Shown: one piece after another, positions 6,217 through 46,363 of the stretch | Layout: each line of letters opens with the position of its first letter | How positions within the stretch are numbered: position 1 is the first letter of the stretch | Source: Alphaproteobacteria bacterium | GTDB lineage: Bacteria; Pseudomonadota; Alphaproteobacteria; 16-39-46 | Direction of reading: 5' to 3' | Assembly (NCBI GenBank): GCA_018401675.1 | Contig: JAGYKM010000004.1 | Location: 34,491 to 98,490 of the forward strand | Length of the DNA stretch: 64,000 nucleotides | The notes under the pieces: model-generated | Told to the model about the DNA's origin: nothing | Database searches by the model: none | What the model saw: the letters and a program-made list of their open reading frames with translations, nothing else | Made by a program: the position numbers and the translations under genes

Positions 6217-6831
6217 ATGATTCTTGAAAAAAAACGCCTTCGTTCAAGGCTTCTTCAAAAGCGTGAGGCTTTTCTTAAAAGTCACGAGACATCGGTGTTA
6301 ACGCCGGGGCTCAACAGCCACTTATTGTCTTTCGTTGAGCTCTACACTCCACACCCGTGTCTCCTTTATGGCTTTTGGCCCTTGCCTACAGAACCGGATA
6401 TTAGGCCTGCTCTTCAGTCCTTATACCACCGCTCTTATTCTATAGGTCTACCCAAAATACTCTCCTTTCAATCTCCCCTTTCTTTTGGCTCTTGGACCCC
6501 ACCTACCTCTTTAGCCCCCAATCCTCACCTTACGTCCATAGACCTTCTTGAGCCCAAAAGTCCTGATCTGGAGTTAGGGCGCCCTTTGGTGGTTTTTGTT
6601 CCGTGTTTAGGGTACGACCACCAAGGTCATCGCCTTGGGTATGGCAAAGGCCTTTACGACAGAACCTTGTACCAGATCCGATCTTTGACGCCTCAGTGTA
6701 TGATTGTAGGGGTTTCTTTTTCTTGCGGGTTGATGGCTGATTTGCCCCATGGCCCTCACGATCATCCTCTAAATGCTGTGATTACGGAGGAAAAATTTCA
6801 CCTTTTTTCCTATCCCTCTCAGGACCGATGA
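6217..6831 (+). CDS. ygfA: 5-formyltetrahydrofolate cyclo-ligase (MTHFS/YgfA)
   Basis: MILEKKRLRSRLLQKREAF N-terminus. Conserved C-terminal motif GYDHQGHRLGYGKGLYDR. The track ORF starts at 6094, but the in-frame ATG at 6217 is the likely start. Confidence 0.8.
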   Translation: MILEKKRLRSRLLQKREAFLKSHETSVLTPGLNSHLLSFVELYTPHPCLLYGFWPLPTEPDIRPALQSLYHRSYSIGLPKILSFQSPLSFGSWTPPTSLAPNPHLTSIDLLEPKSPDLELGRPLVVFVPCLGYDHQGHRLGYGKGLYDRTLYQIRSLTPQCMIVGVSFSCGLMADLPHGPHDHPLNAVITEEKFHLFSYPSQDR

Positions 6832-7937
6832 CGGCCGTAGCGTCTGTCTAAATCCACACCCAATAATAATCCAAACGCCATCATCAAGGTCAACAAGGAT
6901 GTGCCTCCATAAGATACCAAAGGAAGCGGCACGCCCACTACAGGCACTAAACCCATGACCATAGCCGTATTTATAAAAACATAAATAAGAAGCATGGATG
7001 CAATACCTAAGGCCAATAACCGCGCAAAAAGGTTTCTCGCTTCGAGGCTAATTCTCAAGGCTTGATAAAGCAAAATTCCATAAAGGGCCAACAAAAAAAT
7101 AGCCCCTAGAAAACCAAACTCTTCCCCAAACATAGTGAAGATAAAATCCGTCTGCTTTTCTGGCAGAAAATTTAAGCGACTTTGACTTCCTTCCATAAAA
7201 CCCTTGCCTAAAAAACCCCCTGACCCCAGGGCTATTTTAGACTGAACAATATGGTACCCAGCCCCTAATGGATCTCGCTCGGGACTCCAAAAAGTCATGA
7301 TTCTTTCTTTTTGATATCCCCGTAAAATGCCAGGCTAACGGCAAACTGGCAGCCCTGATCACCCCACTATACTGAAATACCAGGATTTCACACCTCTGAG
7401 AAAGAATAAGCTTCCTCCAATAAGCAAAAGCAGAAGCCCTGTACCCAAGTCCGGCTCTTTCAGAACCAAGGCCACGGGGACACAAATCACACCCACTGGA
7501 ATGAGAAGCCTCTTTAATGAATCAATATGCTCTTCTTTAATCTCACTCAAAAGACGCGCCAAGACTAAAATTAAAGCAATTTTCATCAATTCTGAGGGCT
7601 GTAGATTAAACACCCCCAGCTTAATCCATCGTTGAGCACCCATCCCCACGGCTCCGATCACCTCCACAGCCACCAACAACAGCAAGGATATGCCATAAAT
7701 AACGTAAGAAAGCTGATACCACAGCCTTACCTTGGTGGTCGCAATGACGAGCATAAGAACGAAACCTAACCCAAAGCGTAAAAGTTGGGGAAGAGCCCAA
7801 GGCATCCACTGCCCCCCCGATGCTGAAAAAAGCATTAATAATCCCAACCCAAAAATAGAACTCATTACAAAAATAAGCCCCCAATCTAACCGAATCAGTG
7901 CCTTACTTTTTTCATAAAAAAAACCGCTCACACTCAT
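6819..7937 (-). CDS. rodA: Rod shape-determining protein RodA (SEDS family), split into two ORFs by a frameshift near 7300-7358
   Basis: 7359..7937 encodes the N-terminal half with multiple TM segments. 6819..7298 encodes the C-terminal half (DPLGAGYHIVQSKIALGSGGFLGKGF...PEKQTDFIF..EEFGFLG...PLPLVSYGG). Reading upstream of 7298 in the C-terminal frame continues RodA-like sequence until a stop. Confidence 0.85.
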
Positions 7938-12636: not shown

Positions 12637-13314
12637 TCAAGAATTCTTATTTTCTTGAAGAGCCTTCTTTCTTACACGTCTTTTCTTAACGTGATGACGG
12701 CCCAAAAAGAAAATGGCGACCATCAACACAATAATCAACAGACCTATTCCCAAATAGATTTGATAGTCATGAAACCTTGAAATAAGTTTTTCGATAGCAG
12801 TAGCACATACATAACCCACACAACTCACCGTAACGGCCCAAAAAGCCGCCGAAGTCACTGTTAGAATGGTATACCTTCTGATAGACAGACCGCTGGCACC
12901 CACCACCATAGGGGTTAGCGTCCGCAACCCATACACAAATCTGAATCCCATTATAAGCCAGTAGTCATACTTCTTCAAAAGACGAAAAACCCTTTGAGAT
13001 TTCTTTTCCAAAGCCTCAGAACGCCTCAAAAAGAAAGTGAGACCCCGACGTCCAGCAAAATAAAGAAGCTGATCATGAATAATAGCTCCCACAAAAGATA
13101 CAAGAATCACAAGCGGTAAGGACAAATACCCAAAATAGGCCATGCCTCCTCCGAGCAAGAGAACACTTTCCCCTTCCAACAAAGCACCCAGTATTAAGAT
13201 TGGGTACCCATATTCTTGCAAAAGACAATCCATCCTATTTTCCTTTTTCTCGTGCCGATTTTCGATAAATGCTAAGAGACCGTCTTTAGTTTCCTTGCCC
13301 CCCAACCTCTTCAA
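12637..13314 (-). CDS. DedA/SNARE-associated family membrane protein
   Basis: EYGYPILILGALLEGESVLLLGG...RFVYGLRTL signature of the DedA family. The start is probably the internal Met (MDCLLQEYGY). Confidence 0.7.
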   Translation of the reverse strand: MKRLGGKETKDGLLAFIENRHEKKENRMDCLLQEYGYPILILGALLEGESVLLLGGGMAYFGYLSLPLVILVSFVGAIIHDQLLYFAGRRGLTFFLRRSEALEKKSQRVFRLLKKYDYWLIMGFRFVYGLRTLTPMVVGASGLSIRRYTILTVTSAAFWAVTVSCVGYVCATAIEKLISRFHDYQIYLGIGLLIIVLMVAIFFLGRHHVKKRRVRKKALQENKNS

Positions 13315-13437: not shown

Positions 13438-13827
13438 TTATGGGACCATAACCACCTCTTCTCCTGGATCCACAATTTCGATAACACCCGCCCAGTTACA
13501 CATCAATATAGAAGTATTCGCCAAGGCAGGGAAGCCCTTAATGGTCACCGTAGGCGCACCAGCTATCCAAGGAGCGCTCGTGGCCGGTATGCAAGGCATT
13601 GGCGTTAATACACCTAAAGCCGCTGCCGTCGCTGCCGCAACCTCAGGATTCGCCAGACTGATACACATTGCAAAGGGCATAACATTCACCATAGGTGCAT
13701 GATCCATAATGGTGGCTGCAGGCAATCCGTTTGTGGTGGTTTCATTTACAGGCAGCACCGTAAGAACGCTTGGGGCCGTACCCATACTACAAGTACACTG
13801 GGCCGACATACAGGTTGCAATTGGCAT
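13438..13827 (-). CDS. DUF4280-type PAAR-like small protein (spike-tip-like domain)
   Basis: 129 aa. CMSAQCTCSMGTAPSVLTVLP...PFAMCISLANP.VAAAT...PCIPA..WIAGAPTVTIKGFPAL...C pattern with the GAP and PAL motifs I recall for DUF4280. No T6SS or eCIS genes in the window. Confidence 0.45.
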   Translation of the reverse strand: MPIATCMSAQCTCSMGTAPSVLTVLPVNETTTNGLPAATIMDHAPMVNVMPFAMCISLANPEVAAATAAALGVLTPMPCIPATSAPWIAGAPTVTIKGFPALANTSILMCNWAGVIEIVDPGEEVVMVP

Positions 13828-13829
13828 TA

Positions 13830-14396
13830 TTAATCCTCCCTTATTTCTTCTTTACCGAATTGAGTCCTTCTTAGCTCTTCTGAACTATCGAGAGCCCGAC
13901 GTTTTTCTTCGAAACGCCTCGCCAGTTCTCGCTTCTTATTTTTATAAGCACGGCGGTGTTTCAAGGAGTTTTTGTCTACCCACATTTTATGAGCCTGTTC
14001 TACCTCACTCCTTATTCTATTTACTTCTAAAGGGAGGTTCACCTTAGTAGAATTATCTTTCGTTCCATCAATCTTCGGTATTAAACGATCTTCCGCTTTT
14101 TCTTTTAAAAATCCGTCTTCTCTAAGAGGTCTCTTTTCGATGTCACGATGTATAGCCGCCTCTGTTCCTACTACTCGACCCTCAACCACAGTAAGTTCTT
14201 CACGGCATTTATCAGAAACTTTTTCATCACCAAAGAAGGCTTCTTTGCATGTAGGGATATCTCCCAACGCATACAAATGTTTATTTCTGTCTTCTACCTT
14301 CAGTCCTACCGGTGCAACTTCTATTCCTTCCACTGAGAATGAAATGAGTCCAATACTTATAGCCACCAAAGATAATAGCCCCTTTATTCTGCTCAC
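13830..14396 (-). CDS. Secreted hypothetical protein, immediately upstream of and co-oriented with the PAAR-like gene
   Basis: Signal peptide (MSRIKGLLSLVAISIGLISFS). Charged, coiled-coil-like C-terminus. The stop is 3 nt before the PAAR-like start. Confidence 0.45.
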   Translation of the reverse strand: MSRIKGLLSLVAISIGLISFSVEGIEVAPVGLKVEDRNKHLYALGDIPTCKEAFFGDEKVSDKCREELTVVEGRVVGTEAAIHRDIEKRPLREDGFLKEKAEDRLIPKIDGTKDNSTKVNLPLEVNRIRSEVEQAHKMWVDKNSLKHRRAYKNKKRELARRFEEKRRALDSSEELRRTQFGKEEIRED

Positions 14397-14480
14397 TTTT
14401 TCAAACTCCTTTGCTAGCGACGATCTGACTCAGTTATACCCCATTCGAATCAATGGCTCCACCATAATTCTTCAGCCTTT

Positions 14481-16328
14481 TTAAGCCATTGTAAGATTTC
14501 TTGATTGAGACTTAACGCCTATTTCACCTCCAACCCCACTGAAACACGCATCTTCTATAATCATTTGGACTTTTTCACGCCCTTGCCATGTGTCCACCCG
14601 GACAGTGCCCACCACGTCCATAGGCCTCTCAGTTCTCCCTCGCAAAAGCGCTTCTCCCAAGGGCGTCTGGCCAGCACGAAAGGCCATGGCCTCCAGGCAA
14701 GTGCCGTCTTCTCCTTGAAGGCGAACCCGCACATGGGTGTTTTGAATCAGTTGGGGAGCAGTAATGTGAAGCCGGCTCAATAATAAACGAGGGGTAGAGT
14801 TCCCCATGCCAAAGGGGCCCAAAGCTTCAAGAGATTTTATAAAAGGAACACTTATTCCCTTTAAGCTCAACATCCCATCCACGCTCAACTGTGGAATCTC
14901 CAATCCTCCACCTTCTTGAACTGTTTGACATAAAAACGCCACCAGTTCATTTTCTTTTTCTTGAAGAATGGTAAACCCAATAGCCATGGAATGACCACCG
15001 CCATCTATCAAAAGATCTTTTGCTTTTGCCTCGTGGATAAGTCGACCTAGGTTAATACCTGATACCGATCGCCCCGATGCTTTGCCTACACCATTCTCAT
15101 AGGCAATAACACAAGTGGGCCGGTGAAAGCGCTCTTTCAGGCGTCCTGCGATAATGCCAATAACCCCTCCATGCCACCCCTCCCCAGATACCACCAGGAC
15201 TTCCGGCATTTGATCGGGTGTTCCGTAGCGCTTTTCAAGATCTTGGGAAATATCTTTAAACAGAGCCGTTTCAATTTCTTGTCGTTCACGGTTTAAGCTA
15301 TCGCCTTGCATAGCTAAAGCATAGGCTTCTTGCTCGCTCTCAGTGGACAACAACCGTGTGCCCAATGTACTCTCTCCAATGCGCCCCCCTGCATTAATGC
15401 GAGGCCCCAAAATGAAACCCAAATGATAGGCGGTAATCTCATTTTCTAAAGACGCCACTTGAGATAAAGCCGTCAGTCCTTTATTCGATTTTCTATTAAG
15501 AATCTTAAGCCCTTGGGTCACAAAAACCCGATTTATCCCCGTTAGCGAAACCACATCGCATACCGTTCCTAAGGCCACCAAATCTAAGAGCTCTCTCAAA
15601 TCTGGTTCTGCCAGGTTATGAACTTTGTACCACCCCGTCTCTCTGAGTCTTTGATTAAGCCCTACCAGGAATAAAAAAGTCATGCCAACGGCTGCCATGT
15701 GGCCATACATCTGCGTTATATTGGTCGTCTCTTCAGGTTGATTGGGATTAATTAACGCACAAGTGGGTGGCACACTTTCTGAGGTTAAATGATGATCTAT
15801 CACAATCACATCAATCCCACATTTTTGGGCATAGTCTAAAGGCTCAAAAGAAGCTGTCCCACAATCCAGGGTCAATACAACTTTGATGCCCTGCTCATTA
15901 AAGGTTTTGAAAATAGATGTTTTAGGACCATATCCTTCTTTAAAACGATCCGGTATATAAAACTGGATCTCTACCCCTAGTTTTCTAAAAAAACGTATCA
16001 TAAGAGCGGTGGAAGTGGCCCCATCCACATCATAATCTCCCAATACCATAATGGGCTCACCACCCTCCAGCGCACGAATAATCCGATCTACCCCTTCCTT
16101 CATCCCCTTAAATGAAAAAGGGTTGGGTAATTGATCTTTCAAAGAAGGGGACAAAAATCTCTCAATTTTGTTTATGTCGTCGAACCCCCGTGCCACCAGT
16201 ATACGACTGACCAAGTCACTTACGCCCAATCTTTGCGACACTGAAAGAGCAAACCGTTCATCCAAAACGGGCAACGTCCATCTCTGGCCTTTAAGCGATT
16301 TTTGGGAGTCTTGACTATCTGAATTCAT
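14481..16328 (-). CDS. recJ: Single-stranded-DNA-specific exonuclease RecJ
   Basis: DHH motifs (VLGDYDVDGATS, DHH) and DHHA1 domain. Correct length. Confidence 0.9.
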   Translation of the reverse strand: MNSDSQDSQKSLKGQRWTLPVLDERFALSVSQRLGVSDLVSRILVARGFDDINKIERFLSPSLKDQLPNPFSFKGMKEGVDRIIRALEGGEPIMVLGDYDVDGATSTALMIRFFRKLGVEIQFYIPDRFKEGYGPKTSIFKTFNEQGIKVVLTLDCGTASFEPLDYAQKCGIDVIVIDHHLTSESVPPTCALINPNQPEETTNITQMYGHMAAVGMTFLFLVGLNQRLRETGWYKVHNLAEPDLRELLDLVALGTVCDVVSLTGINRVFVTQGLKILNRKSNKGLTALSQVASLENEITAYHLGFILGPRINAGGRIGESTLGTRLLSTESEQEAYALAMQGDSLNRERQEIETALFKDISQDLEKRYGTPDQMPEVLVVSGEGWHGGVIGIIAGRLKERFHRPTCVIAYENGVGKASGRSVSGINLGRLIHEAKAKDLLIDGGGHSMAIGFTILQEKENELVAFLCQTVQEGGGLEIPQLSVDGMLSLKGISVPFIKSLEALGPFGMGNSTPRLLLSRLHITAPQLIQNTHVRVRLQGEDGTCLEAMAFRAGQTPLGEALLRGRTERPMDVVGTVRVDTWQGREKVQMIIEDACFSGVGGEIGVKSQSRNLTMA

Positions 16329-24311: not shown

Positions 24312-25187
24312 ATGTCTATTGCATTAAAGGTGGATTCTATGCACAGAGCAGCCGATAAATCAAGTTTGGAGAAGCAGTTACGCCATTTAGATATAAAAAA
24401 AATTATTTCCTATAGCGCTGATGACCATAAAACCTGGGAGAGACTTTATACCCTCCAGACTGAAAACCTAAAAGATCTTGCCCATCCTCGATTTTTAAAA
24501 AATCTTTCTGATCTCACTTTACCGCAAAATCAGATCCCCCAGCTCGAAGAAATCTCAAAGACGCTCTTTAAAAAAGCGGGATGGCGTATAGCAGAAGTTA
24601 CTGGATTAATTGATGGGGACGATTTTTTTGGACTTCTTTCCCAGCGTGTTTTTCCGTCCACGACATATTTGAGAAATTCGAGTGAACTTTTTATATCACG
24701 AGACCCAGATATTTTTCACGAATTGTTTGGCCACTGTCCTTTTCTACTCGATAAACGTCACGCCCTTCTATTCGAAAAATTTGGGCACCATGGCTTAAAA
24801 TTAGACAAAGTACAACGCCAATTTCTCCAACGCCTCTTTTGGTTTACCTTTGAAACAGGGTTAATTTTAGAATCCCAAAAATTGAAAATATACGGCGGCA
24901 GTCTCCTCTCTTCTATTAAAGAATCCTCCTTTTCTCTAAAAAGCCATAAGGTAAAACGTCCACTGTTCAACACTGTTCAAATTTTTAGAACTCCCTATAG
25001 AGCGGATATACTTCAAAATATTTATTATGTTCTCAAAGATTTCTCAACGCTTGATGGGCTCCTTGATGATCTTGATTTGCTAAAAAGAAAAATGGAGATT
25101 GCCTATGATTTGGGAGAATTTCCTCCCTCGTTTTCCTTAGACAAAACTCAGTCTCGCTACACAAATATTAATATAGAATCTTTATAA
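24312..25187 (+). CDS. phhA: Aromatic amino-acid hydroxylase (phenylalanine-4-hydroxylase-like, non-haem Fe / tetrahydropterin dependent)
   Basis: Iron-binding DIFHELFGHCPFL (H-x4-H), YGGSLLSS, and RTPY...QNIYYVLKDFSTL C-terminus. Confidence 0.85.
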   Translation: MSIALKVDSMHRAADKSSLEKQLRHLDIKKIISYSADDHKTWERLYTLQTENLKDLAHPRFLKNLSDLTLPQNQIPQLEEISKTLFKKAGWRIAEVTGLIDGDDFFGLLSQRVFPSTTYLRNSSELFISRDPDIFHELFGHCPFLLDKRHALLFEKFGHHGLKLDKVQRQFLQRLFWFTFETGLILESQKLKIYGGSLLSSIKESSFSLKSHKVKRPLFNTVQIFRTPYRADILQNIYYVLKDFSTLDGLLDDLDLLKRKMEIAYDLGEFPPSFSLDKTQSRYTNINIESL

Positions 25188-25807: not shown

Positions 25808-28264
25808 ATGACTAACCCAACATACAGCGGAAAACAAATTAAGCACCCCGAAGCTCTTGTAGCTCCTGTGAGACTATTGACCCACGAATTTTTTGAACAA
25901 CAGGCTCAAAAAAACCCGGATAACACTGCCCTTTTTTTTAATACAGACTCGTTAACCTATGCTCAACTCAATGAGCGCTCAAACCACCTGGCTCACTACT
26001 TAACCAGTTTGGGAATTAAAGCAGAGGATCGAGTGGCTCTAGTCTTGGATCCTTCTTTTGAACTGCTCATCAGCATATTTGCCGTTCTTAAAGCTGGGGC
26101 TGCTTATGTTCCCATAGATCCAACAACTCCCCTAAAAAGAATCGAATTTATTCTCAAAGACACCTCAGCGCGGATCCTCCTTATAAGTCCTGGGTATAAA
26201 AACATCTTCAAGAAGCACGCTATCCACATTTTGGCCCTGTCTTTTAATTCATCTATGAAAACGCTCTTTGGATGGGAAAAACCCTTTAGCTCTCCAGTCT
26301 TTTTACGAACTCCTTTGAATCTAAATGAAATATTCGGCGCCACCAATCTTCACATAGACATTCTTCCCAGACAGCTTGCTTATATAATTTATACCTCCGG
26401 GTCTAGCGGCACCCCAAAAGGGGTGTGTATAGAGCACGCATCCTTAGCCAACTATTTACTTCATATAAGAGATAATTGCTCTTTTACTGAGGGAGGGTCT
26501 CTTCTGCACTCGTCAGTCGCTTTTGATATGAGTGTTACCTCTTTATTTCTAAATCTTATACAGGGGAATTCCCTTTATATACTCTCAAAGACCCAGACCC
26601 CTCTAGAATCACTCTCCGTTTTCTTAGAACAAAATAAACTAAACGCTCTCAAACTTACCCCATCCCACCTAAAAGCTTTTAAAAAATCTCTTTCTATTAA
26701 GGCGTCCCTTGTACCCAAGGGATCTTTGTTTCTAGGTGGGGAATCGCTTTCATGGGAGGATATCGATAGTTTTTTTTCGTCATCAGATTTGTCTGTTATG
26801 TCTATTTTTAATCACTATGGGCCAACGGAAGCCTGTGTGGGATGCTGCATTTTTCCAATACCACCTCACCATAGGAGGCATTCTTCAACAGTCCCCATTG
26901 GAAAACCAATTTCAAATACCCATATATACCTACTCACTGTTGCCATGGATCCAGTAGGAAATGGTGAAACCGGAGAGCTCTATATCGGAGGAGCCGGTTT
27001 AGCACGCGGGTATTTAAATCAACCTTCCCTCACTGCTGAAAGGTTTGTCCCAAATCCTTTTCTTCTCAAAGAAAACTTCCAGAGCCATAAGAATCCTCAG
27101 TCTTTAAGACTCTACCGGACTGGTGATCTGGGACGCTATTTACCTGATGGTACCATTGAACTTCTGGGCAGAACAGATGAGCAGATAAAAATAAAGGGGT
27201 ATAGAATTGAGTGTGGAGAAGTAGAAAAGTACTTAAACACTCACTCAAAGATTCTCACTTCTGCGGTTTTCTCCTGGAAAGATCCCTCCGGTATAAATAA
27301 ACTTGTCACTTATCTGGTTCCCACTATTAGAGAGACAAATAAGATAAGAAAAAAAAATGCCTCTTCCTTGGGAAATAAGGTTCCCATACTTAGGGGACCA
27401 ACTTTGGCTGCTTTATCGGAAACCTTACGAAAGCATGTAGAAAAATCCCTTCCCTCTTATATGGTGCCTTCTTATTTCATTTTCACTGAGTCAATTCCTC
27501 TAACAACCAACGGAAAAATTGATAAAAAAGATCTGCACGAGCATATCTCACTAGCTACCTCCAGTCCCTCAAGGGGTGAAGAGCCCGATTCTCATATCGA
27601 AAAGAAATTATCCATTATCTGGTCTTCTGTTTTTAACCTTCCCTCTATAGGAATGCATACCAATTTCTTTAGCTTAGGCGGCGATTCCATCATTAGTTTG
27701 CAACTCATTGCCCAAGCAAAAACTCAAGGAATTTTGTTCTCAGCTATGGATGTACTTAGTTATCCCACAATTGCCGCCTTGAGTCGTGTGTCCCGTCTTA
27801 CACTACCCCCCTCTCCACAACGACTGGTCCCTTGCAGCCCTCATGGCTCCTTTCCTTTGACACCTATTCAGAGTTGGTTCTTCAAAAGAAATTTGCGCAA
27901 TATAAATCATTACAATCAAGCGGTTTATCTTAATCTCTCGCCCGGGTGTAATTTGACTTTTATCCACAAAGCCTTTGAGCTCATCATTGAGGCTCACCCC
28001 ATCCTCCAATGTAAGTATAAACCAAAGACTCCTGGGACTTGGGATCAACAACTTAACCCATCGGAAGGTACAGTTTTCTCTTGGAAGGTAATTGATCTGA
28101 GCAATCTGTCTTCCTCTGATAGCAACATTCATATAGAGAAATTAACGCCCTCTTATCAGGCTAGCTTAAATATTGCAGAAGGCCCTTTACTGTCAGTCGT
28201 TGCTTTTAATCTGGGATCTAAAGAGCCTCCGTTTACTGATTATTATTCATCACCTGGTTATTGA
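25808..28264 (+). CDS. NRPS fragment 1: adenylation domain 1, thiolation domain 1, N-terminal part of an epimerisation domain (loading module with no starter C domain)
   Basis: A-domain core motifs YTSGSSGTPKGV, NHYGPTE, GELYIGGAGLARGY, YRTGDL, GRTDEQIKIKGYRIE, NGKIDKK. T motif FFSLGGDSI. Then PLTPIQSWFF. The ORF ends at 28264 but continues in the +1 frame. Confidence 0.85.
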   Translation: MTNPTYSGKQIKHPEALVAPVRLLTHEFFEQQAQKNPDNTALFFNTDSLTYAQLNERSNHLAHYLTSLGIKAEDRVALVLDPSFELLISIFAVLKAGAAYVPIDPTTPLKRIEFILKDTSARILLISPGYKNIFKKHAIHILALSFNSSMKTLFGWEKPFSSPVFLRTPLNLNEIFGATNLHIDILPRQLAYIIYTSGSSGTPKGVCIEHASLANYLLHIRDNCSFTEGGSLLHSSVAFDMSVTSLFLNLIQGNSLYILSKTQTPLESLSVFLEQNKLNALKLTPSHLKAFKKSLSIKASLVPKGSLFLGGESLSWEDIDSFFSSSDLSVMSIFNHYGPTEACVGCCIFPIPPHHRRHSSTVPIGKPISNTHIYLLTVAMDPVGNGETGELYIGGAGLARGYLNQPSLTAERFVPNPFLLKENFQSHKNPQSLRLYRTGDLGRYLPDGTIELLGRTDEQIKIKGYRIECGEVEKYLNTHSKILTSAVFSWKDPSGINKLVTYLVPTIRETNKIRKKNASSLGNKVPILRGPTLAALSETLRKHVEKSLPSYMVPSYFIFTESIPLTTNGKIDKKDLHEHISLATSSPSRGEEPDSHIEKKLSIIWSSVFNLPSIGMHTNFFSLGGDSIISLQLIAQAKTQGILFSAMDVLSYPTIAALSRVSRLTLPPSPQRLVPCSPHGSFPLTPIQSWFFKRNLRNINHYNQAVYLNLSPGCNLTFIHKAFELIIEAHPILQCKYKPKTPGTWDQQLNPSEGTVFSWKVIDLSNLSSSDSNIHIEKLTPSYQASLNIAEGPLLSVVAFNLGSKEPPFTDYYSSPGY

Positions 28265-30422
28265 CGGGGTATCTTGGCGGATTCTCATAGAAGATCTAGC
28301 CCGCATCTATCAAGATCTCACGTCTCATAAAAATCCTGTTTTACCCCTTGAAACCGTTTCTTATGGCCAATGGGGCCATATCCTCCAAGAATATGCGTCC
28401 TCAGACATAGCACAAAGGCAAATTCCTTACTGGAAGGCAGTTGAAGAATTGATTCAACCGTTGCCCACAGATTTTGAAAATGGAGATAATGCCAATTGCA
28501 ACCAAGGGCAGATCTCTATTTCTCTCTCCTCCAAACAAACCAGCTCCCTTCTAAAGAAAGTGCCTCAAGCTTACCACACTCAGATCAACGACATTCTTCT
28601 CACCGCCCTTACTTTAGGGGTAGGAGATTGGACTAAAGTTTATAATCTTTCCATAACCCTCGAAGGCCATGGGCGCGAAGAAATCCTACAAGATATGGAT
28701 TTAACACGCACCCTAGGATGGTTTACCACCATTTTTCCTGTCAATCTCTCTCTAAAAGATCCGAATAATCTTCCTCAAGCCATTCGAACCATAAAAGAAA
28801 TTTTACATGGCATACCACAAAAGGGAATCGCCTACAGTGCCCTTACTACTCTCCATAAGACACAATGCTCTTTAACCTCCCCCATTCCCTCTCTTAGTTT
28901 TAATTACTTAGGTCAATGGAATAAAATATCTCTCGCTGATGCCCCATTCAGCTTATCAAAAGTGCTTCCCTCCCACTGCGTTTCTCCCCTGAATATTTGG
29001 CCTCATGTTTTGAGTATTGACGCCGAAATCCGGAAAAACAACCTCACCTTCACATGGAGCTATAGTGAAAATCATTACACTGAAGAAACAGTGCGTGGAA
29101 TTGCGGAAAATTGTGTCTCTAGGCTTGAGCAAATAATCGATCATTGCTGCACCTTAACATCATCTTCCCATTCCCCTTCCGATTTCCCTCTTGTGAAATT
29201 TACTCAAGACCAAATAGATCAGTATTTCATCAATCTCCCTTTTCTAGACACAGCCTATCCACTTACCCCTATGCAGTTAGGGTTTCTTTTTCATAGCCTC
29301 TATGCCCCAAATTCTGATGCCTACATGGTTCAATCTATATGGAATTTAGAAGGAGTGTTGGATCCAAACTTACTTGAAACAGCCTGGCAACTCATAACGG
29401 ATCAGCATGATATTTTGAGAACAGGGTTTTTATGGAAAGAATTGGAAACCCCCGTTCAATATGTATTAACGTCTTTAAAAATCCCCTTTGTCTTTTTGAA
29501 TTGGATGTCTTTTCCTCCAACTGCTCTAAAAAAACAAATGGAGACTTTTTTCAAAGAAGATCGTCAAAAAGGGTTTGAATTAAACCAAGCCCCACTTTTT
29601 AGAGTAACCTTAATTCAAACAGGCTCTCTCTCTTACACTCTCATTTGGACCCGACATCATATAATTATTGATGGCTGGAGTGCAGCGACACTTTTGGAAG
29701 AACTGATGTGTTTTTATGACTGCTTGATAAGGAAAAAAAGAATCTATCTCCCCTCGCGCCCTCCTTATAGAGACTATATACACTGGATTAACCAACAAAA
29801 CTTCGACGACGAAGCTTCTTTTTGGAAGAAAAATTTAAGTGGAGTTACTGATCCTAGCCGCTTCAGCTTTAAATCAATTGTTCGAAAAAATCTCAGAAAA
29901 GAATATGATGTTTATTGCTTAAAAATGTCCAAAAAACATTCAGCCCATATAAGAACATGGGCAAAAAATAACAATCTGTCGCTCAATACACTGCTCCAAG
30001 GCATGGTAGCTCTTCTTATTAAATTTCTATATCAAAATAATTTTATCATGGGCATGACATTCTCAGGTCGAACGATTGACCTGAGTGACGTTTCGGAAAT
30101 GGTTGGCTTATTTATCAATACTCTACCCCTACGCATAACTTTTGAACCCAAGAAAAGTTTTTCTTCTTTCTTAAAGAAGTTACAACGCCAAATTCAAGAG
30201 TTAAATGCCCATGCCTATGTACCATTAGCAGATATTCAAACCTGGTCTGGCCTTGGATCTCATCTGTTTGACGTTCTATTTGTTTACGAAAAGTACATGA
30301 AAAATGTAAACGACCTTACTTATCCTAATGGCATTAAAAATACGCTCTATAGGCGCATAGAAAAAACAGAATATCCTCTCACCATTGTTGTCAGACGAGG
30401 GGGAAATCGTCTTCAATTTTAA
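28173..30422 (+). CDS. NRPS fragment 2: remainder of the epimerisation domain (HHLVIDGVSWRIL) and a downstream condensation domain (RHHIIIDGWS), overlapping fragments 1 and 3 in different frames
   Basis: E2-type HHxxxDGVSW at about 28247-28276. Second C-domain start YPLTPMQLGF and HHIIIDGWS at about 29652-29681. Confidence 0.8.
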   Translation: MQKALYCQSLLLIWDLKSLRLLIIIHHLVIDGVSWRILIEDLARIYQDLTSHKNPVLPLETVSYGQWGHILQEYASSDIAQRQIPYWKAVEELIQPLPTDFENGDNANCNQGQISISLSSKQTSSLLKKVPQAYHTQINDILLTALTLGVGDWTKVYNLSITLEGHGREEILQDMDLTRTLGWFTTIFPVNLSLKDPNNLPQAIRTIKEILHGIPQKGIAYSALTTLHKTQCSLTSPIPSLSFNYLGQWNKISLADAPFSLSKVLPSHCVSPLNIWPHVLSIDAEIRKNNLTFTWSYSENHYTEETVRGIAENCVSRLEQIIDHCCTLTSSSHSPSDFPLVKFTQDQIDQYFINLPFLDTAYPLTPMQLGFLFHSLYAPNSDAYMVQSIWNLEGVLDPNLLETAWQLITDQHDILRTGFLWKELETPVQYVLTSLKIPFVFLNWMSFPPTALKKQMETFFKEDRQKGFELNQAPLFRVTLIQTGSLSYTLIWTRHHIIIDGWSAATLLEELMCFYDCLIRKKRIYLPSRPPYRDYIHWINQQNFDDEASFWKKNLSGVTDPSRFSFKSIVRKNLRKEYDVYCLKMSKKHSAHIRTWAKNNNLSLNTLLQGMVALLIKFLYQNNFIMGMTFSGRTIDLSDVSEMVGLFINTLPLRITFEPKKSFSSFLKKLQRQIQELNAHAYVPLADIQTWSGLGSHLFDVLFVYEKYMKNVNDLTYPNGIKNTLYRRIEKTEYPLTIVVRRGGNRLQF

Positions 30423-32346
30423 CTATCAAACAGAACATTTTGATAAAAATAATAAAGGCTCTTACGAGTCACTTAGATCATCTTTTCAAAATCTTGTTCC
30501 CACCAACTTAGATTCTTCTTTTCCTTTTATGAGTGAAGGATTTCCTTCCCACTTATCTCGGAAAAAAGTTCCTGAGATGAAAGATAAGATGATTTTCCCT
30601 AACCAGGTCGTGGAAAGCCCAGACCCAGAAAATCTATGCACCACCTTTGAAAATACGGTTACAAAATATGGCTCTACTATAGCCCTGATTCATAAGAAAT
30701 ATACTCTCACCTATTCCGAATTGAATAAAAAAGCAAACCAACTTGCCCACCACCTCCGACAATCCGGCGTTTCTTCTAAGACCTTTGTAGGAGTGCTTAC
30801 CAAAGATCCTGTATACGCAGTCATAGGCCTTCTCGGAATACTAAAATCGGGAGGTATCTATGTGCCTTTGGACCCAAACCATCCAATAAAAAGACTCATG
30901 GGTCTTCTTGCGGATATGAAGTGGCCCATTCTTTTGAGTGACGCTTCTTTAAAAAATACTTTTTCTCAGTACAGAGGCGACCTATTTATATTGGATAAAG
31001 AGTGGTCTTCTTTTAATCAACAGGGAAGTACAAACCCTCCCTCTCTTTCTAAGAAAACCCACTTAGCTTATCTAATATTCACTTCAGGATCTACAGGGAC
31101 ACCCAAAGGTGTTCTATGTGAATTTGGTAGCCTAGAGAATCTCTTGGCATCCCTAAATGCCTCTATCTCTATAGAACCGGGAGAATATTTTTTACAAAAT
31201 GTGTCTTTTTCCTTCGATCCGTCTTTATGGACTACCCTATGGCCTTTACTCCAAGGGGCGACCTTGATTCTTTTGAACTCCAGAGAAATGGCTGATCCAA
31301 AGAGGATCTCTGATATCATACAGAAATATGCCATCAAAACGCTTCATGCAGGCCCCTCCCTCACGAGGAGCATATTAGCTCAAAAAGATATTCTTACTAA
31401 AATAAGATCTCTAGAACACCTAATCGGAGGCGGTGAACCATGGTCAGTGGAAGACCTCAAACAACTCGTAGGTCTACTCCCGCGCTGTACTTTTACGAAC
31501 GTATATGGCCCCACAGAAACAACAATCCATGTTACCCAATGGACCTACTCATCTATCCACAAAAGGGTTTCTTTGAAAACAATACCCATTGGAAAACCCA
31601 TTATCAATGTACAAGCTTACATTCTCGACGACGATCTAACTCTTTTGCCTCCTTTTGCTCCAGGCGAACTTTATATAGGCGGAATGGCACTGGCGCGAGG
31701 CTATTTGAATGATCCCTCCTTAACAGCCAAAAAATTCATTCCAAATCCATTTTGCACGCCTTCTCTCTTTAATCAAAAAAATTCTCTTAGGTTATACAAG
31801 ACAGGAGATTTGGCCCGTTTTTTATCTGACGGGACAGTAGAATTTTTAGGCAGGGTCGATAACCAAATCAAAATTAGAGGTTTCAGAATTGAGCCTGGTG
31901 AAATTGTGGCTCAGCTCAATAGAGGCACACATGTCTCCACCAGCGCAGTTTTTCTCTCCTGTGAAAACAACGGAGATAAGGCCCTTTTTGCATTCATTGT
32001 GCCTACCCCACATAGAGCTTGTTCTTATGATTTAGGACCGACGTTTTATGCATCCTCAGGAGAAAAAATTTCTCTATTTAAAGGACCATCCCTCATGGAT
32101 GACATTGAGACCTTAAAACAAATGCTATCCGACGAGCTCCCTGATTATTTTATCCCTTCGACTTTTATTTTCCTCAATAAAATCCCTCTTCATCTCAAAG
32201 GAAAACTTGACCCCCTTTCGTTTCCAAAAGAATTCATTTCTGAGCAAAAAGTCAAACCACTATCTCCCACCCAACCAATTATCTTCAGTATCTTATTCTG
32301 GAAAATTGGAAGAGGGTCCTTGGACCCAGAATATTTCTGTAGATGA
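30385..32346 (+). CDS. NRPS fragment 3: end of the C domain plus adenylation domain 2
   Basis: LIFTSGSTGTPKGV, NVYGPTETT, GELYIGGMALARGY, YKTGDLARF, GRVDNQIKIRGFRIE, KGKLD. The frame ends at 32346, just before the T-domain motif. Confidence 0.85.
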   Translation: MLSDEGEIVFNFNYQTEHFDKNNKGSYESLRSSFQNLVPTNLDSSFPFMSEGFPSHLSRKKVPEMKDKMIFPNQVVESPDPENLCTTFENTVTKYGSTIALIHKKYTLTYSELNKKANQLAHHLRQSGVSSKTFVGVLTKDPVYAVIGLLGILKSGGIYVPLDPNHPIKRLMGLLADMKWPILLSDASLKNTFSQYRGDLFILDKEWSSFNQQGSTNPPSLSKKTHLAYLIFTSGSTGTPKGVLCEFGSLENLLASLNASISIEPGEYFLQNVSFSFDPSLWTTLWPLLQGATLILLNSREMADPKRISDIIQKYAIKTLHAGPSLTRSILAQKDILTKIRSLEHLIGGGEPWSVEDLKQLVGLLPRCTFTNVYGPTETTIHVTQWTYSSIHKRVSLKTIPIGKPIINVQAYILDDDLTLLPPFAPGELYIGGMALARGYLNDPSLTAKKFIPNPFCTPSLFNQKNSLRLYKTGDLARFLSDGTVEFLGRVDNQIKIRGFRIEPGEIVAQLNRGTHVSTSAVFLSCENNGDKALFAFIVPTPHRACSYDLGPTFYASSGEKISLFKGPSLMDDIETLKQMLSDELPDYFIPSTFIFLNKIPLHLKGKLDPLSFPKEFISEQKVKPLSPTQPIIFSILFWKIGRGSLDPEYFCR

Positions 32347-35302: not shown

Positions 35303-36586
35303 TCATTCTCCTTGAACTCTTTCGAAAAATTGGCACATTCTTTCGTAGTTGATAGCGTAAGTATGGAGTAGGTCTTCTGCCCACAACTTCTCTTTTCGGC
35401 TGATCCATTGGCTTCGTTCATTTTGCCATACAGTAATGGCCCCAAGGTCTCCTAATTTTATAGAATCAATGAGTTTGTTTCGAGCGGATTGTCGAAGATG
35501 TTTTGGCAGGATTTTCCTAAAACCATTTACCCCGAAAGCATAAAGAGTGCCTCCTCTGGGATCCCTTCCTTCCAAAGCCTCTTCACAACATGCAAGCACT
35601 TCGTGAACAGATTCTAGTAGATTACTTTCTGAGAGATCATCGCCCCTAAAGTGTTCACCTATGCATCTTCCAGAACGAATTGCATAGCAGGATAATCCTA
35701 ATCGTCTTTTTTCATCAAAAAGAGTCCTTTGGTGTTTTTCTTCGAGTTTAGGATCTCCCTCAGCTACAGAGTCCTCAAGACTTTTTTCATCGATATCCAC
35801 ATAGCGAGGATCCGCATCCCCTAAAAATTGGTTCAGTGTAGCTTTTTGACTTTTCAGCCGTCCATTCACTTTTTCCAACGACGCTACAAACCAAGCTTGG
35901 TTTCTCTCTGAGAGGCTTCTTTTATCCCCTCCTTGAGCGCTTAAGCTTTCCTCCCACACTGACCTAAAGGCTGCCAAAAAAATGAGAGAAGCTATAGGAT
36001 TCTTAAAACCTGAAGCGGCTATAAGTCCATAAAGCCCTCCTGTGCGCCTAAAGTAGTGATGATGCTCCATAAGGTTTCCGAGCTTTTCCACACATACCTT
36101 ATATTCTTCATCCCACGCCGCACCTGAAGCCTCTATGAGTGGTAATAAGATATTCTTTACCAGTTGCATATGCGGTTCATTCACAGCTGTTTCTAAAAAA
36201 AGAATCCCACATAAGTTCGTTTGGTATACTTTGGGACCTTCGACGCTCCATACCACTGCATTCTTCCGCTGGGTACGCTGGGTGAAATGTTCCCATTCTT
36301 CTTGCCATCTTTGAGAAGTGAGGTCTTTTTCTTTGAGCCGGGTATACAAAGCAAAAGCATCATAAGAGGAAGATTGTTCTACGGCTTGTTGGATTTCTTC
36401 CTGGACTGATACAAATTCACTTTTCAGACTCTTTGCCTCTCCTCTCTCTTCTTCGAGGCTCCCATCACCATAGGGCACAAGAGGGTCCATGGCCAAAGAA
36501 CTATGAACAATACCCGAAACCATAAGTCCACACACAACCTTACCGGCAAAAGAAAAAAAATGTTCGCCAAGCTTACTTTTTCTCAT
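35303..36586 (-). CDS. Hypothetical secreted protein (427 aa). A paralogous fragment lies about 300 nt upstream.
   Basis: Signal peptide. No recognisable domain. Its 3' end (35313-35372) is repeated at 36902-36961. Confidence 0.5.
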   Translation of the reverse strand: MRKSKLGEHFFSFAGKVVCGLMVSGIVHSSLAMDPLVPYGDGSLEEERGEAKSLKSEFVSVQEEIQQAVEQSSSYDAFALYTRLKEKDLTSQRWQEEWEHFTQRTQRKNAVVWSVEGPKVYQTNLCGILFLETAVNEPHMQLVKNILLPLIEASGAAWDEEYKVCVEKLGNLMEHHHYFRRTGGLYGLIAASGFKNPIASLIFLAAFRSVWEESLSAQGGDKRSLSERNQAWFVASLEKVNGRLKSQKATLNQFLGDADPRYVDIDEKSLEDSVAEGDPKLEEKHQRTLFDEKRRLGLSCYAIRSGRCIGEHFRGDDLSESNLLESVHEVLACCEEALEGRDPRGGTLYAFGVNGFRKILPKHLRQSARNKLIDSIKLGDLGAITVWQNERSQWISRKEKLWAEDLLHTYAINYERMCQFFERVQGE

Positions 36587-40381: not shown

Positions 40382-41300
40382 TTATTTTGCTTCCCAAATA
40401 GCAGTCACTCTTCGTTTCCCATCACTTTGCTTATCAACTTGAATCACTTTGTCTAAAACGCTCCGTAAATAGGGTCCACTTTGGAAGGTATCATGACCAC
40501 TCAGAATTAAATTTGTTGGAACGTATGATCTAACGCTGCTTGGGGAGAATTGGCATGAATAGTGTGGACATAAAGCCTTTGTGACCTGTATTCAGTAATC
40601 TTAAAATAGGAAAACAATTATCCACCGAAATCTCGCCCGTAATGAGAATATCGGGACGCATACGCACCACATGATCAATCAAGGATTGATAACTCAGGTG
40701 GCGTGAAGAAGCATAGCGGGGAACACGATAGGAGACCCAATGGGGGTGAGGTAAGTCTAACTCAGGCGTATCTTCAATGGTTATTATCCGTTTGTCTAAG
40801 GGAATCTCTTTTACCAATATATTCAGTAAGCTTGTCTTACCTGAGGACGTCCCTCCAGAAATAAGCATAGAAGACCCCTTTTTGAGGGCTTTCTTTAAAG
40901 ACAGAATTGATGATTGCTCAAGCCCAAAATCTTCCATGGTACGGCTTTGAACACGTCTCAGCCGAACCGATACACTAATGCCATTTTGGACTCGGTCTCC
41001 CCACATGGCTTCAAATCGGTGCCATCCTCCTCGCCTTGCATCGGGGAGAATAGCAGCGAGTAACCCTTGACCTTCAGGCTTAAACTCAAGGCCTTGTTCA
41101 TTGGCCAACGTGTGGATTAAGCCCTCCCAATAGGACAGTGTTAACCGAGTATCTAAATGATGAAGGAACTCCCCCTTATGAGTTTCTAACACAAACTCAC
41201 CTGGTTTTACCGCCATAATTTCCACAAGAGTTAGATCGTCCAAAAAACCTTCCCACGGCCTCAGAAGACTCCCTAAAAGAGGGCTTATTGGAGCAATCAT
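40382..41300 (-). pseudogene. virB11: Type IV secretion ATPase VirB11 with two frameshifts in the C-terminal third (pseudogene or indel errors)
   Basis: Track ORF 40530..41300 contains Walker A GGTSSGKTS, Walker B IITIED, RMRPDILITGEI and His-box LNTGHKG. It then reads ...MSTLFMPILPKQR*. Shifting frame gives TIHANSPQAALDH, and a second shift gives NLILSGHDTFQSGPYLRSVLDKVIQVDKQSDGKRRVTAIWEAK*, which is the canonical VirB11 C-terminus, ending at about 40382. Confidence 0.85.
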
Positions 41301-43549: not shown

Positions 43550-43608
43550 AAATATTTCCTTATCTATAAACTCAATTTATCGAGAAAAAAGTCCTTTTAG
43601 ATCATTCG

Positions 43609-45621: not shown

Positions 45622-46363
45622 AGGTCGTCACGTAAAATCCACAAGGATTATGGTAACGCTCTTCAAATTTCACCCTGTGGGTTTCAAATTTGATGGTCAG
45701 CGTAGATACCCAGCTTTGGACTTTGGTCTTGACGCCATTCTCGTAGTCAACACTGTCCCAGTCAACTTGAACGATATAGGGTAGCTTTGATAAGGTAGCC
45801 ACCGACCGAATTGAAACATGCCGGGTAAGCCCCCGGTTTTTTCTTTTCGAAAATAGCCCCTCGCCCTCCCGAGACATGAGTTGCTTAAAGGCTTGAAAGA
45901 CTTCTGGAGCACTGAAATTAAATATTTTTTGCCATCTCATTTCTTCTGTTTGAAGGTCTATATCTTCTCTCAGTTTCACATACTCTCTCGATAAGGATTC
46001 AACCATGAGAGCAAAGCCCTCAGTATGAGTGGCAATAGGCTCGATCTGCACGATTTGTTCTGTTTGAGGAGAAAAAGTAACCAACAAAGGCTCTACCTTT
46101 TTAAGAGGGAATAGATCAAAAAATAACATACAAAAACAAAAATTTATTATAAATGATCCAAGTAAACATACCCCAAGGAGCCTACATATCCAGTATAGTG
46201 TTCGATAAGCATGTCCAGTTTCCAAGGGACGCCCTTTGGCCAGAGAGGGCAATATAGCATCCTCTCTCTTATGTCTATGTAACCTAAAAACAGTTACAAT
46301 TAAATTCATAAAATATTTTCTTTGCTCTTTTATCGATCCAACTAAATTTTTCATGAAAGCCAA
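45572..46363 (-). CDS. virB8: T4SS protein VirB8
   Basis: Bitopic protein with an NTF2-like periplasmic domain and an NPCGFYVTTY motif (NPxGF). Confidence 0.8.
   Translation of the reverse strand: MAFMKNLVGSIKEQRKYFMNLIVTVFRLHRHKREDAILPSLAKGRPLETGHAYRTLYWICRLLGVCLLGSFIINFCFCMLFFDLFPLKKVEPLLVTFSPQTEQIVQIEPIATHTEGFALMVESLSREYVKLREDIDLQTEEMRWQKIFNFSAPEVFQAFKQLMSREGEGLFSKRKNRGLTRHVSIRSVATLSKLPYIVQVDWDSVDYENGVKTKVQSWVSTLTIKFETHRVKFEERYHNPCGFYVTTYGVGEKSPQGEQNDPL

What the first reader, a model, noticed from the sequence alone, without database searches (positions are those of the whole stretch)
13438..14396. Orphan DUF4280/PAAR-like spike-tip protein with a co-transcribed secreted partner, far from any contractile-injection genes
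The 129-aa protein has the Cys/Gly/Pro pattern and the GAP...PAL motifs I associate with DUF4280, one of the PAAR-like families that cap VgrG/spike proteins of T6SS or eCIS particles. The gene 3 nt upstream encodes a signal-peptide protein of unknown function. No sheath, baseplate or VgrG genes are in this window. The pair sits between DedA and recJ in a housekeeping context.
Basis: partly seen in the sequence, partly recalled or inferred. Interest (0 to 1): 0.6.

Follow-up and report, generated by a model that had tools for sequence, protein, structure and literature searches.

The report
Solitary PAAR-like T6SS spike-tip gene
A small, very well conserved gene for the sharp tip of a bacterial injection needle (type VI secretion) sits alone among housekeeping genes in a small-genome uncultured lake bacterium; this is a known kind of protein in a known kind of arrangement, so the finding is real but fairly ordinary.

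Summary
Window 13438-13827 (-) encodes a 129-aa DUF4280 protein (Pfam E=3e-32). It has the family's four invariant cysteines. Its AlphaFold model (pLDDT 93) best matches VgrG-bound spike-tip/PAAR structures. A 188-aa ORF with a signal-peptide-like N-terminus ends 2 nt upstream. No type VI secretion (T6SS) or other contractile-injection gene lies in the 64 kb.

Homologues 57-69% identical sit inside canonical T6SS clusters in most of the 80 genomes sampled. The window protein keeps 53 of the 55 columns conserved in those homologues, and its dN/dS is about 0.07-0.15. It is therefore a working spike tip, not a relic.

The window very probably comes from Lake Shunet MAG M30B67 (1.29 Mb, GTDB order 16-39-46). 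Four related contigs keep the gene solitary near dedA or recJ.

The upstream "partner" is an ORFan. It diverges beyond recognition where DUF4280 stays 80-88% identical, and it is absent in more distant relatives. A functional link is unsupported.

Most likely reading: the tip of a T6SS whose core genes lie elsewhere in the genome. Scattered T6SS genes are published for Holosporales symbionts. I could not search the rest of the genome.

Verdict: new member of a known kind, low to moderate interest.

The parts
13438..13827 (-). Gene for a 129-aa DUF4280 (PAAR-like) spike-tip protein with no extension domain. The invariant cysteines are C13, C55, C79 and C110.
   Evidence: Pfam E=3.2e-32. Four invariant Cys in alignments A2 and A3. 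AF2 pLDDT 93. Foldseek top hits are a VgrG-bound T6SS cargo-complex chain and PAAR proteins. 53 of 55 conserved columns are kept. dN/dS is 0.07-0.15.
13834..13839 (-). GGAGGA ribosome-binding site for the DUF4280 gene. It lies inside the 3' end of the upstream ORF, 6 nt before the ATG.
   Evidence: Read directly from the sequence.
13830..14396 (-). 188-aa ORFan (GTG start). It has a signal-peptide-like N-terminus, two cysteines (C50, C64) and a highly charged remainder. It is a neighbour of the DUF4280 gene and possibly co-transcribed; a functional link is unproven.
   Evidence: ORF. No Pfam or NCBIfam family at a meaningful score. No PDB sequence match. Only itself among 5.8 billion proteins. 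Positional counterparts in L090 and L091 show marginal similarity, E=0.02 and 0.002. Hydropathy and charge. Codon-usage score favours this frame, +0.21 against -0.39 and -0.44.
14406..14410 (-). AGGAG ribosome-binding site 9 nt before the GTG start of the 188-aa ORF.
   Evidence: Read directly from the sequence.
12637..13314 (-). DedA/VTT-domain membrane protein. It is the conserved downstream neighbour of DUF4280 in this lineage. The real start is probably the internal ATG that gives MDCLLQEYGYP...
   Evidence: Pfam VTT_dom E=4.4e-15. Orthologues 56% identical lie downstream of DUF4280 in L025 and L007/L008. L091 shows the same N-terminus directly after DUF4280.
14481..16328 (-). recJ, the upstream flank, part of a conserved pyruvate dehydrogenase-lipA-SRPBCC-recJ block.
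   Evidence: Homologues carry DHH/DHHA1/RecJ_OB domains and RecJ names. The same block is present in L090, L093 and L094.

Best explanation
The 129-aa protein is a functional, extension-less PAAR-like (DUF4280) protein. It forms a small conical beta-structure held together by a metal ion bound to four cysteines (C13, C55, C79, C110). [quoted passage not shown]

In this organism the gene is detached from the other T6SS genes. The organism is very probably Lake Shunet MAG M30B67, a 1.29-Mb genome of the uncultured alphaproteobacterial GTDB order 16-39-46. The gene has been inherited vertically at a fixed housekeeping position (recJ - small ORF - DUF4280 - dedA). The sheath, tube, baseplate, membrane-complex and VgrG genes are expected elsewhere in the genome, dispersed as described for Holosporales-type symbionts.

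The upstream 188-aa ORF is a fast-evolving, probably Sec-exported lineage-specific protein. It shares a transcript or promoter region with DUF4280 but is not needed to explain it.

Shown here: family membership, the cysteine set, the fold, purifying selection, the T6SS context of homologues, the conserved solitary position, and the absence of T6SS genes in the window.

Inferred: a T6SS encoded elsewhere, metal binding, VgrG capping and co-transcription.
For: Family. DUF4280 E=3.2e-32 over the full profile. C13, C55, C79 and C110 are invariant in 41 and in 63 homologues, matching the four-cysteine metal site that defines DUF4280/IglG (PMC5014421, PMC5349215).

Fold. The AF2 model has pLDDT 93 and pTM 0.82. 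The best PDB matches are 9jg8_B (a chain of a cargo complex bound to the VgrG spike; E=9.5e-6, TMq 0.66), 4jiw_D (E. coli PAAR) and 4ku0_D (T4 gp5.4).

Context of homologues. Homologues 57-69% identical lie within 10 kb of VgrG, ClpV, TssB, F, G, K, L or M in 63 loci (62 of the 80 genome loci). Only about 10 loci with a full or nearly full 10-kb flank on each side lack any core gene.

Constraint. The window protein keeps 53 of the 55 columns that are at least 95% conserved in those 63 T6SS-embedded proteins. dN/dS is 0.07-0.15. DUF4280 is 80% identical between the window and L090, where RecJ is 71% and the SRPBCC protein 40%.

Vertical inheritance. The window, L091, L090, L007 and L025 form a clade with 97% NJ bootstrap support. 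They share neighbours: recJ upstream and dedA downstream.

Source. Contig L089 from run SRR14300309 is 100% identical to the window over 940 bp. That run belongs to the Lake Shunet study. Its MAG M30B67 has a 110,824-bp N50 contig, 43.1% GC, and GTDB placement in o__16-39-46 with the L025 genome as nearest reference.

Literature. T6SS is conserved in almost all Holosporineae genomes (PMC11909080). Its core genes are split over at least 4 loci in Paracaedibacter-like symbionts (PMC8163844).
Against: No T6SS gene is in the 64-kb window, and I could not read the other contigs of the genome. The existence of a T6SS in this organism is therefore not shown.

The order 16-39-46 is not shown to belong to, or to be close to, the Holosporales. 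The scattered-T6SS precedent is an analogy.

The link between the window and MAG M30B67 rests on matching contig length, GC content, one sequencing run and taxonomy, not on a direct sequence comparison.

About 10 other well-flanked loci in other phyla also lack nearby T6SS genes. Solitary copies exist whose partners are equally unknown.
Confidence: 0.7

Rival explanations
1. DUF4280 and the upstream 188-aa protein form a two-gene functional module, with the partner acting as cargo, adaptor, chaperone or immunity protein. This is what the first reader suggested.
For: There is a 2-nt gap, the ribosome-binding site lies inside the upstream ORF, and no terminator-like site lies between the genes. 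An ORF with a hydrophobic N-terminus also sits directly upstream of DUF4280 in L090, and a (5'-truncated) ORF in L091. A weak shared motif (E-x-A-x-x-x-W-x-D-x-N-S) gives pairwise E=0.02 and 0.002. PAAR-like proteins are known to bind neighbour-encoded partners, for example IglG and IglF (PMC5014421).
Against: The partner has no homologue among 5.8 billion proteins apart from itself. It diverges beyond recognition while DUF4280 stays 80-88% identical. It is absent upstream of DUF4280 in the more distant clade members L007 and L025, and nothing similar is found in the 80 other loci. A Sec-type signal would export it to the periplasm, whereas the spike is loaded in the cytoplasm. T6SS immunity genes usually follow their effector gene, not a bare PAAR gene (general knowledge).
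Confidence: 0.12
2. The gene is a relic of a lost T6SS, or the protein has been recruited to a job that does not involve a contractile injection system, in a genome that has no sheath, tube or VgrG genes.
For: No T6SS gene lies in 64 kb. The genome is small, 1.29 Mb with 82% coding density, and shows signs of gene decay in the window (split rodA, fragmented NRPS). DUF4280 is solitary in all five members of the clade. DUF4280 proteins also occur in Gram-positive bacteria, where no T6SS is known (PMC5349215; L041, L060, L068 and L072).
Against: Purifying selection is strong (dN/dS 0.07-0.15). The protein is more conserved than RecJ. It keeps 53 of the 55 positions conserved in T6SS-embedded homologues, which is not expected after loss of the VgrG partner or a change of function. 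T6SS is retained even in the smallest Holosporineae genomes (PMC11909080).
Confidence: 0.1
3. It is the spike tip of a phage tail, tailocin or extracellular contractile injection system rather than of a T6SS.
For: The fold also matches phage spike-tip proteins: T4 gp5.4, phage P1, phiKZ and a Klebsiella phage.
Against: The close homologues (57-69% identical) sit in T6SS clusters with TssB, F, G, K, L, M and ClpV, not in phage or eCIS clusters. There are no phage or eCIS genes in the window. The phage matches are much weaker (E of at least 0.27) than the T6SS matches.
Confidence: 0.05

Closest known systems
Stand-alone ~129-aa DUF4280 proteins encoded in T6SS clusters of the canonical (T6SS-i) type in Acidobacteriota, Pseudomonas and Paraburkholderia. 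P. aeruginosa PA2375 is cited as a DUF4280 protein in PMC5014421; I did not compare it with the window protein.
   Same: Same length and no extension domain. 57-69% identity over the full length. The same four cysteines. 53 of 55 conserved columns are shared.
   Different: Those genes lie next to vgrG, clpV, tssF/G, or ppkA/pppA with tssM/tssL. This one lies between recJ and dedA, with no T6SS gene within at least 13 kb on one side and 50 kb on the other.
Francisella IglG (DUF4280; NCBIfam NF041248)
   Same: The DUF4280 domain with four metal-binding cysteines and a predicted PAAR-like fold (PMC5014421). NCBIfam match E=7.5e-12 over IglG positions 55-167.
   Different: The score is far below the IglG family cut-off (45 bits against 200). 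The window protein lacks IglG's N-terminal amphipathic helix, which binds IglF. IglG is encoded inside the Francisella pathogenicity island.
Canonical PAAR proteins (PF05488; V. cholerae VCA0105, PDB 4JIV; E. coli c1882, PDB 4JIW)
   Same: A conical spike-tip fold. Foldseek hit to 4jiw_D with probability 1.00, TMt 0.69.
   Different: The PF05488 score is below the cut-off (15.9 bits against 27). The metal site is Cys4 rather than His3Cys (PMC5349215). The PAAR motifs are not conserved.
Bacteroides T6SS spike-bound cargo complex BtpeA-BtaeB-BtapC on VgrG (PDB 9jg8 and 9jg9, chain B)
   Same: The best structural match: E=9.5e-6, TMq 0.66, 24% identity.
   Different: That chain belongs to a multi-protein cargo complex of a Bacteroides T6SS. 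The window protein is a bare 129-aa domain in an alphaproteobacterium.
Dispersed T6SS of Paracaedibacter-like / Holosporales protist symbionts (PMC8163844, PMC11909080)
   Same: A reduced alphaproteobacterial genome, with T6SS parts expected to be spread over several housekeeping locations.
   Different: [quoted passage not shown] The window's order (16-39-46) is not shown to be part of that group.

Membership tests
DUF4280 / PAAR-like (Pfam PF14107) | Match to the family HMM above the curated cut-off, over the whole domain | tested here: met
   111.8 bits against a cut-off of 26.3, E=3.2e-32, profile positions 2-108 of 109.
DUF4280 / PAAR-like (Pfam PF14107) | Four highly conserved cysteines (PMC5014421) | tested here: met
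   C13, C55, C79 and C110 are invariant in 41 close homologues (A2) and in 63 more diverse homologues (A3).
DUF4280 / PAAR-like (Pfam PF14107) | PAAR-like conical beta fold | tested here: met
   AF2 pLDDT 93, pTM 0.82. The top Foldseek PDB hits are all VgrG- or gp5-bound spike-tip proteins: 9jg8_B, 9jg9_B, 4jiw_D, 9f4b, 4ku0_D. The first AF2 run, with a shallow alignment, failed (pLDDT 34).
DUF4280 / PAAR-like (Pfam PF14107) | Coordination of a metal ion (Zn or Fe) by the cysteines | not testable with these tools
   This needs metal analysis of purified protein. Only the presence of the ligand residues is shown here.
DUF4280 / PAAR-like (Pfam PF14107) | Works with a VgrG spike of a T6SS encoded in the same genome | not testable with these tools
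   There is no VgrG or other T6SS gene in the window. The other contigs of the genome could not be read: the source genome was not among the loci returned by the single genome-contig scan, and exact-sequence look-ups of three window proteins and P0001 found nothing on record. Homologues are T6SS-embedded in 63 loci.
Canonical PAAR (Pfam PF05488) | HMM match above the cut-off; three PAAR motifs; His3Cys zinc site | tested here: not met
   15.9 bits against a cut-off of 27, E=0.015, one short stretch at residues 85-110. It is related by fold only.
IglG (NCBIfam NF041248) | Score above the family cut-off, and the N-terminal alpha-helical extension that binds IglF | tested here: not met
   45.4 bits against a cut-off of 200. 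The alignment starts at IglG profile position 55, so there is no N-terminal extension.
PAAR-toxin / polymorphic effector | An N- or C-terminal toxin or Rhs extension fused to the PAAR-like domain | tested here: not met
   The protein is 129 aa and the DUF4280 match covers residues 6-122. Many distant homologues do carry extensions, with lengths of 200-1026 aa.

The most novel reading that the evidence does not exclude
The order 16-39-46 genomes have no sheath, tube or VgrG genes. Their strongly conserved solitary DUF4280 protein then works without a contractile injection system. It might, for example, be a small metal-binding protein acting with the fast-evolving exported neighbour or with the VirB-type type IV system in the same window. 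That would be the first T6SS-independent role for a PAAR-like protein.
Probability: 0.08. Interest if true: 0.6.

Novelty: new member of a known kind. Interest (0 to 1): 0.25.

Why it matters
The value is mainly in annotation. The gene shows that an uncultured, genome-reduced alphaproteobacterial lineage keeps a spike-tip gene under tighter constraint than recJ. That implies an active T6SS, probably used on a host or on competitors.

It also points to a component, the PAAR-like tip, that published inventories of dispersed T6SS in Paracaedibacter-like and Holosporales symbionts do not list.

It gives a simple prediction that can be tested on public data: the core T6SS genes should be on other contigs of JAGYKM000000000. 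It does not reveal a new kind of system.

Tried and rejected
1. Finding the source genome by exact protein look-up. The DUF4280 protein, P0001, RecJ and MreB are not on record. Only the 188-aa ORF gave a 940-bp Logan contig. That contig led, through the run accession, to the Lake Shunet paper.

2. The single genome-contig scan did not return the source genome, so genome-wide T6SS presence could not be tested.

3. The first AlphaFold run, with 41 close homologues, failed (pLDDT 34). It was rescued with a more diverse alignment.

4. A profile search of PDB sequences found nothing meaningful (PsaR, E=0.26).

5. Homologues of the 188-aa ORF. None was found in the 5.8-billion-protein search, in the 80 loci, in Pfam or NCBIfam or in PDB sequences. 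An HMM built from the three positional counterparts did not reach the recJ-downstream ORFs of L094, despite a motif that looks similar by eye. That resemblance is rejected as unsupported.

6. Joining L093 (recJ at a contig end) to L007 (DUF4280 at a contig start) from the same metagenome. The ends do not overlap.

7. The promoter and terminator scan gave no more sites than shuffled sequence, so it is uninformative.

8. Literature searches for '16-39-46', GCA_002257235 and NCGZ01 gave nothing.

9. A Biopython bootstrap timed out and was replaced by a numpy NJ bootstrap.

Full report
OBSERVATION

The two ORFs exist as described. A 129-aa ORF lies at 13438..13827 on the minus strand. A 188-aa ORF (GTG start) lies at 13830..14396 on the same strand.

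The upstream stop codon and the ATG are 2 nt apart, not 3. A GGAGGA ribosome-binding site lies inside the end of the upstream ORF, 6 nt before the ATG. An AGGAG lies 9 nt before the GTG.

The flanks are a DedA/VTT membrane protein (12637..13314) and RecJ (14481..16328). They are embedded in mreBCD-PBP2-rodA on one side and SRPBCC-lipA-pyruvate dehydrogenase on the other.

WHAT THE 129-aa PROTEIN IS

Pfam gives DUF4280 at E=3.2e-32, covering essentially the whole profile. The canonical PAAR model and the IglG model are hit only below their cut-offs.

Cysteines C13, C55, C79 and C110 are invariant in 41 close and in 63 more diverse homologues. These are the four cysteines that define the family. 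In Francisella IglG they are needed for metal binding and function (PMC5014421, PMC5349215).

A first AlphaFold run on a shallow alignment failed (pLDDT 34). With a more diverse alignment the model reached pLDDT 93 and pTM 0.82. Its best PDB matches are all spike-tip proteins sitting on VgrG or gp5:
- 9jg8_B and 9jg9_B, from the Bacteroides T6SS cargo complex on the VgrG spike (E=9.5e-6, TMq 0.66 for 9jg8_B);
- 4jiw_D, the E. coli PAAR protein;
- 4ku0_D, T4 gp5.4;
- several other phage tips.

Family membership and fold are therefore established. The protein has no toxin extension, whereas many distant relatives do.

WHAT ITS RELATIVES DO

The family is very large, with more than 7,800 hits, and is strikingly uniform. 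Proteins of 128-129 aa that are 65-71% identical occur in Acidobacteriota and Acetobacteraceae, and 57-69% identical ones in Pseudomonas, Paraburkholderia and other groups.

I clustered the ORFs of 88 fetched loci and confirmed the cluster representatives with Pfam as VgrG, ClpV, TssB, TssF, TssG, TssK, TssL and TssM. In 63 loci (62 of the 80 genome loci) at least one T6SS core gene lies within 10 kb of the DUF4280 gene. It is often immediately adjacent to vgrG, or to ppkA/pppA with tssM and tssL. About ten loci with a full or nearly full 10-kb flank on each side have none. This subfamily is thus normally a T6SS-cluster gene, but solitary copies are not rare.

IS THE WINDOW COPY STILL WORKING?

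Yes, by every measure available.
- It keeps 53 of the 55 alignment columns that are at least 95% conserved among the 63 T6SS-embedded homologues. Those homologues themselves keep 53-55.
- Against its relatives, dN/dS is 0.07-0.15, with synonymous sites saturated.
- Between the window and contig L090 the DUF4280 protein is 80% identical. RecJ next door is 71% and the SRPBCC protein 40%.

WHERE THE WINDOW COMES FROM

Exact look-ups of four proteins failed. The 188-aa ORF, however, is on a 940-bp Logan contig from run SRR14300309 that is 100% identical to the window.

That run belongs to the Lake Shunet meromictic-lake study (PMC8382752). Its supplementary tables list MAG M30B67 (JAGYKM000000000) with these properties:
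- 1,294,506 bp in 44 contigs, with an N50 contig of 110,824 bp, the same length as the contig recorded for the window's proteins;
- 43.1% GC (the window is about 43%);
- coding density 81.8% and completeness 92.4%;
- GTDB classification c__Alphaproteobacteria; o__16-39-46; f__16-39-46, with GCA_002257235.1 as nearest reference.

That reference is 'Alphaproteobacteria bacterium 16-39-46', the genome that supplied locus L025 in my scan. The identification is indirect but internally consistent.

A CONSERVED SOLITARY POSITION

Four related contigs show the same kind of arrangement.
- L091 (DUF4280 88% identical): small ORF - DUF4280 - dedA.
- L090 (80%): SRPBCC - recJ - 149-aa ORF - DUF4280.
- L007 (66%) and L025 (58%): DUF4280 - glnA - dedA - phosphoribosyltransferase, with DedA 56% identical to the window's.

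The five proteins form a clade with 97% NJ bootstrap support among 68 sequences. The gene has therefore been inherited vertically, detached from any T6SS cluster, for as long as this lineage has diversified. L094 is a further relative (RecJ 51% identical). It has the same pyruvate dehydrogenase-lipA-SRPBCC-recJ block but no DUF4280 in the 4 kb after recJ.

THE 'PARTNER'

The 188-aa ORF looks like a real gene. It has a good ribosome-binding site, its codon usage favours this frame, and an ORF occupies the same position in L090 and L091.

Its N-terminus (MSRIK followed by 15 hydrophobic residues) resembles a Sec signal peptide. The rest is about 45% charged residues with two cysteines. The L090 counterpart has the same layout.

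However, it has no homologue other than itself among 5.8 billion proteins. It has no family or PDB match. It is only marginally similar to its positional counterparts (E=0.02 and 0.002 in pairwise searches), although DUF4280 is 80-88% identical in the same genomes. Upstream of DUF4280, L025 has two trypsin-like protease genes instead, and L007 has 426 nt without an ORF.

A periplasm-directed protein is also an unlikely cargo for a spike that is loaded in the cytoplasm. I therefore treat the adjacency as probably incidental. Co-transcription remains plausible (2-nt gap, no terminator-like site between the genes) but is unproven.

NO INJECTION MACHINERY IN THE WINDOW

Pfam or NCBIfam scans covered 36 of the 44 ORFs of at least 150 aa. 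The remaining eight were identified by sequence or synteny as MreC, MreB, RecJ, LipA and the four pyruvate dehydrogenase genes. Together the ORFs comprise:
- housekeeping genes;
- fragments of a non-ribosomal peptide synthetase;
- a VirB-type type IV secretion cluster (VirB4, VirB6, VirB8, VirB9, VirB10, VirB11);
- several ORFs without any family.

None is a T6SS, eCIS or phage-tail gene. BLAST of every ORF from 12 T6SS-rich loci against all window ORFs hit only the DUF4280 gene and an ABC transporter.

MOST LIKELY MECHANISM

The protein caps the VgrG trimer of a T6SS whose other genes lie elsewhere in this small genome.

There is published precedent. T6SS is conserved in almost all Holosporineae genomes, including the smallest (PMC11909080). 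[quoted passage not shown] Those papers do not mention a PAAR or PAAR-like component.

Whether order 16-39-46 is related to that group, and whether it has a T6SS at all, I could not test. I put 0.7 on this explanation.

RIVAL EXPLANATIONS
- A true DUF4280-partner module: 0.12.
- A relic, or a T6SS-independent role in a genome without a T6SS: 0.10.
- A phage or eCIS spike tip: 0.05.

VERDICT

'Orphan' holds only at the scale of the window, and the 'partner' is probably just a neighbour. This is a new member of a known family in a known type of arrangement (a dispersed or orphan PAAR gene). It has modest added value for understanding secretion in an uncultured, genome-reduced alphaproteobacterial order. 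Interest 0.25.

Noticed in passing
window 40530-50579 (-): A VirB/Trb-type type IV secretion gene cluster. It contains a VirB11-like ATPase (40530-41300), VirB10/TrbI (43609-44658), VirB9/CagX (44659-45621), VirB8 (45572-46363), VirB6/TrbL (46565-47488) and VirB4 (48213-50579). It is flanked by large ORFs with no family match (41297-43549, 750 aa; 38423-40246, 607 aa; 35303-36586, 427 aa).
   Followed up: partly
window 6819-7937 (-): rodA (FtsW/RodA/SpoVE family) is split into two ORFs. ORF 7359-7937 covers profile positions 5-180 and ORF 6819-7298 covers positions 205-354. This is either a pseudogene or a frameshift or stop error in a hybrid long-read assembly.
   Followed up: no
window 25808-32346 (+): A non-ribosomal peptide synthetase is broken into three overlapping ORFs in different frames: A-T-C (start of a condensation domain), C-C, and A. 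Together with the MAG's 82% coding density this suggests gene decay or assembly frameshifts. A biopterin-dependent aromatic amino acid hydroxylase gene lies just upstream (24312-25187).
   Followed up: no
L025 7504-9741 (+): In 'Alphaproteobacteria bacterium 16-39-46', two tandem genes for trypsin-like serine proteases with hydrophobic N-termini lie 260 nt upstream of the solitary DUF4280 gene. The same contig encodes an 1194-aa ORF that looks by eye like a LuxR-type HTH / P-loop NTPase / TPR-like protein, and a 668-aa coiled-coil-like protein. Neither was scanned against any family library.
   Followed up: partly
L041, L072, L060, L068 (Acetivibrio / Bacillota MAGs): DUF4280 proteins about 60-69% identical to the window protein occur in Gram-positive (Bacillota) MAGs. 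L060 has a distant VgrG-like ORF (25% identity); no T6SS core gene was found by BLAST in the other three. [quoted passage not shown]
   Followed up: no
L094 9052-13111 (+): In a more distant relative (GCA_018242545.1), recJ is followed by a 159-aa and a 1055-aa Ser/Thr/Gln-rich ORF. They share a C-terminal motif (QA.T..(4)W...(8-9)YNA...I.(7)G.T.LP) with each other. It loosely resembles the W-x-D-x-N-S motif of the window's 188-aa ORF, but an HMM search did not support homology.
   Followed up: partly
window 1-64000: There are no Rfam matches at gathering score anywhere in the 64 kb: no tRNA, riboswitch or other known RNA family.
   Followed up: no
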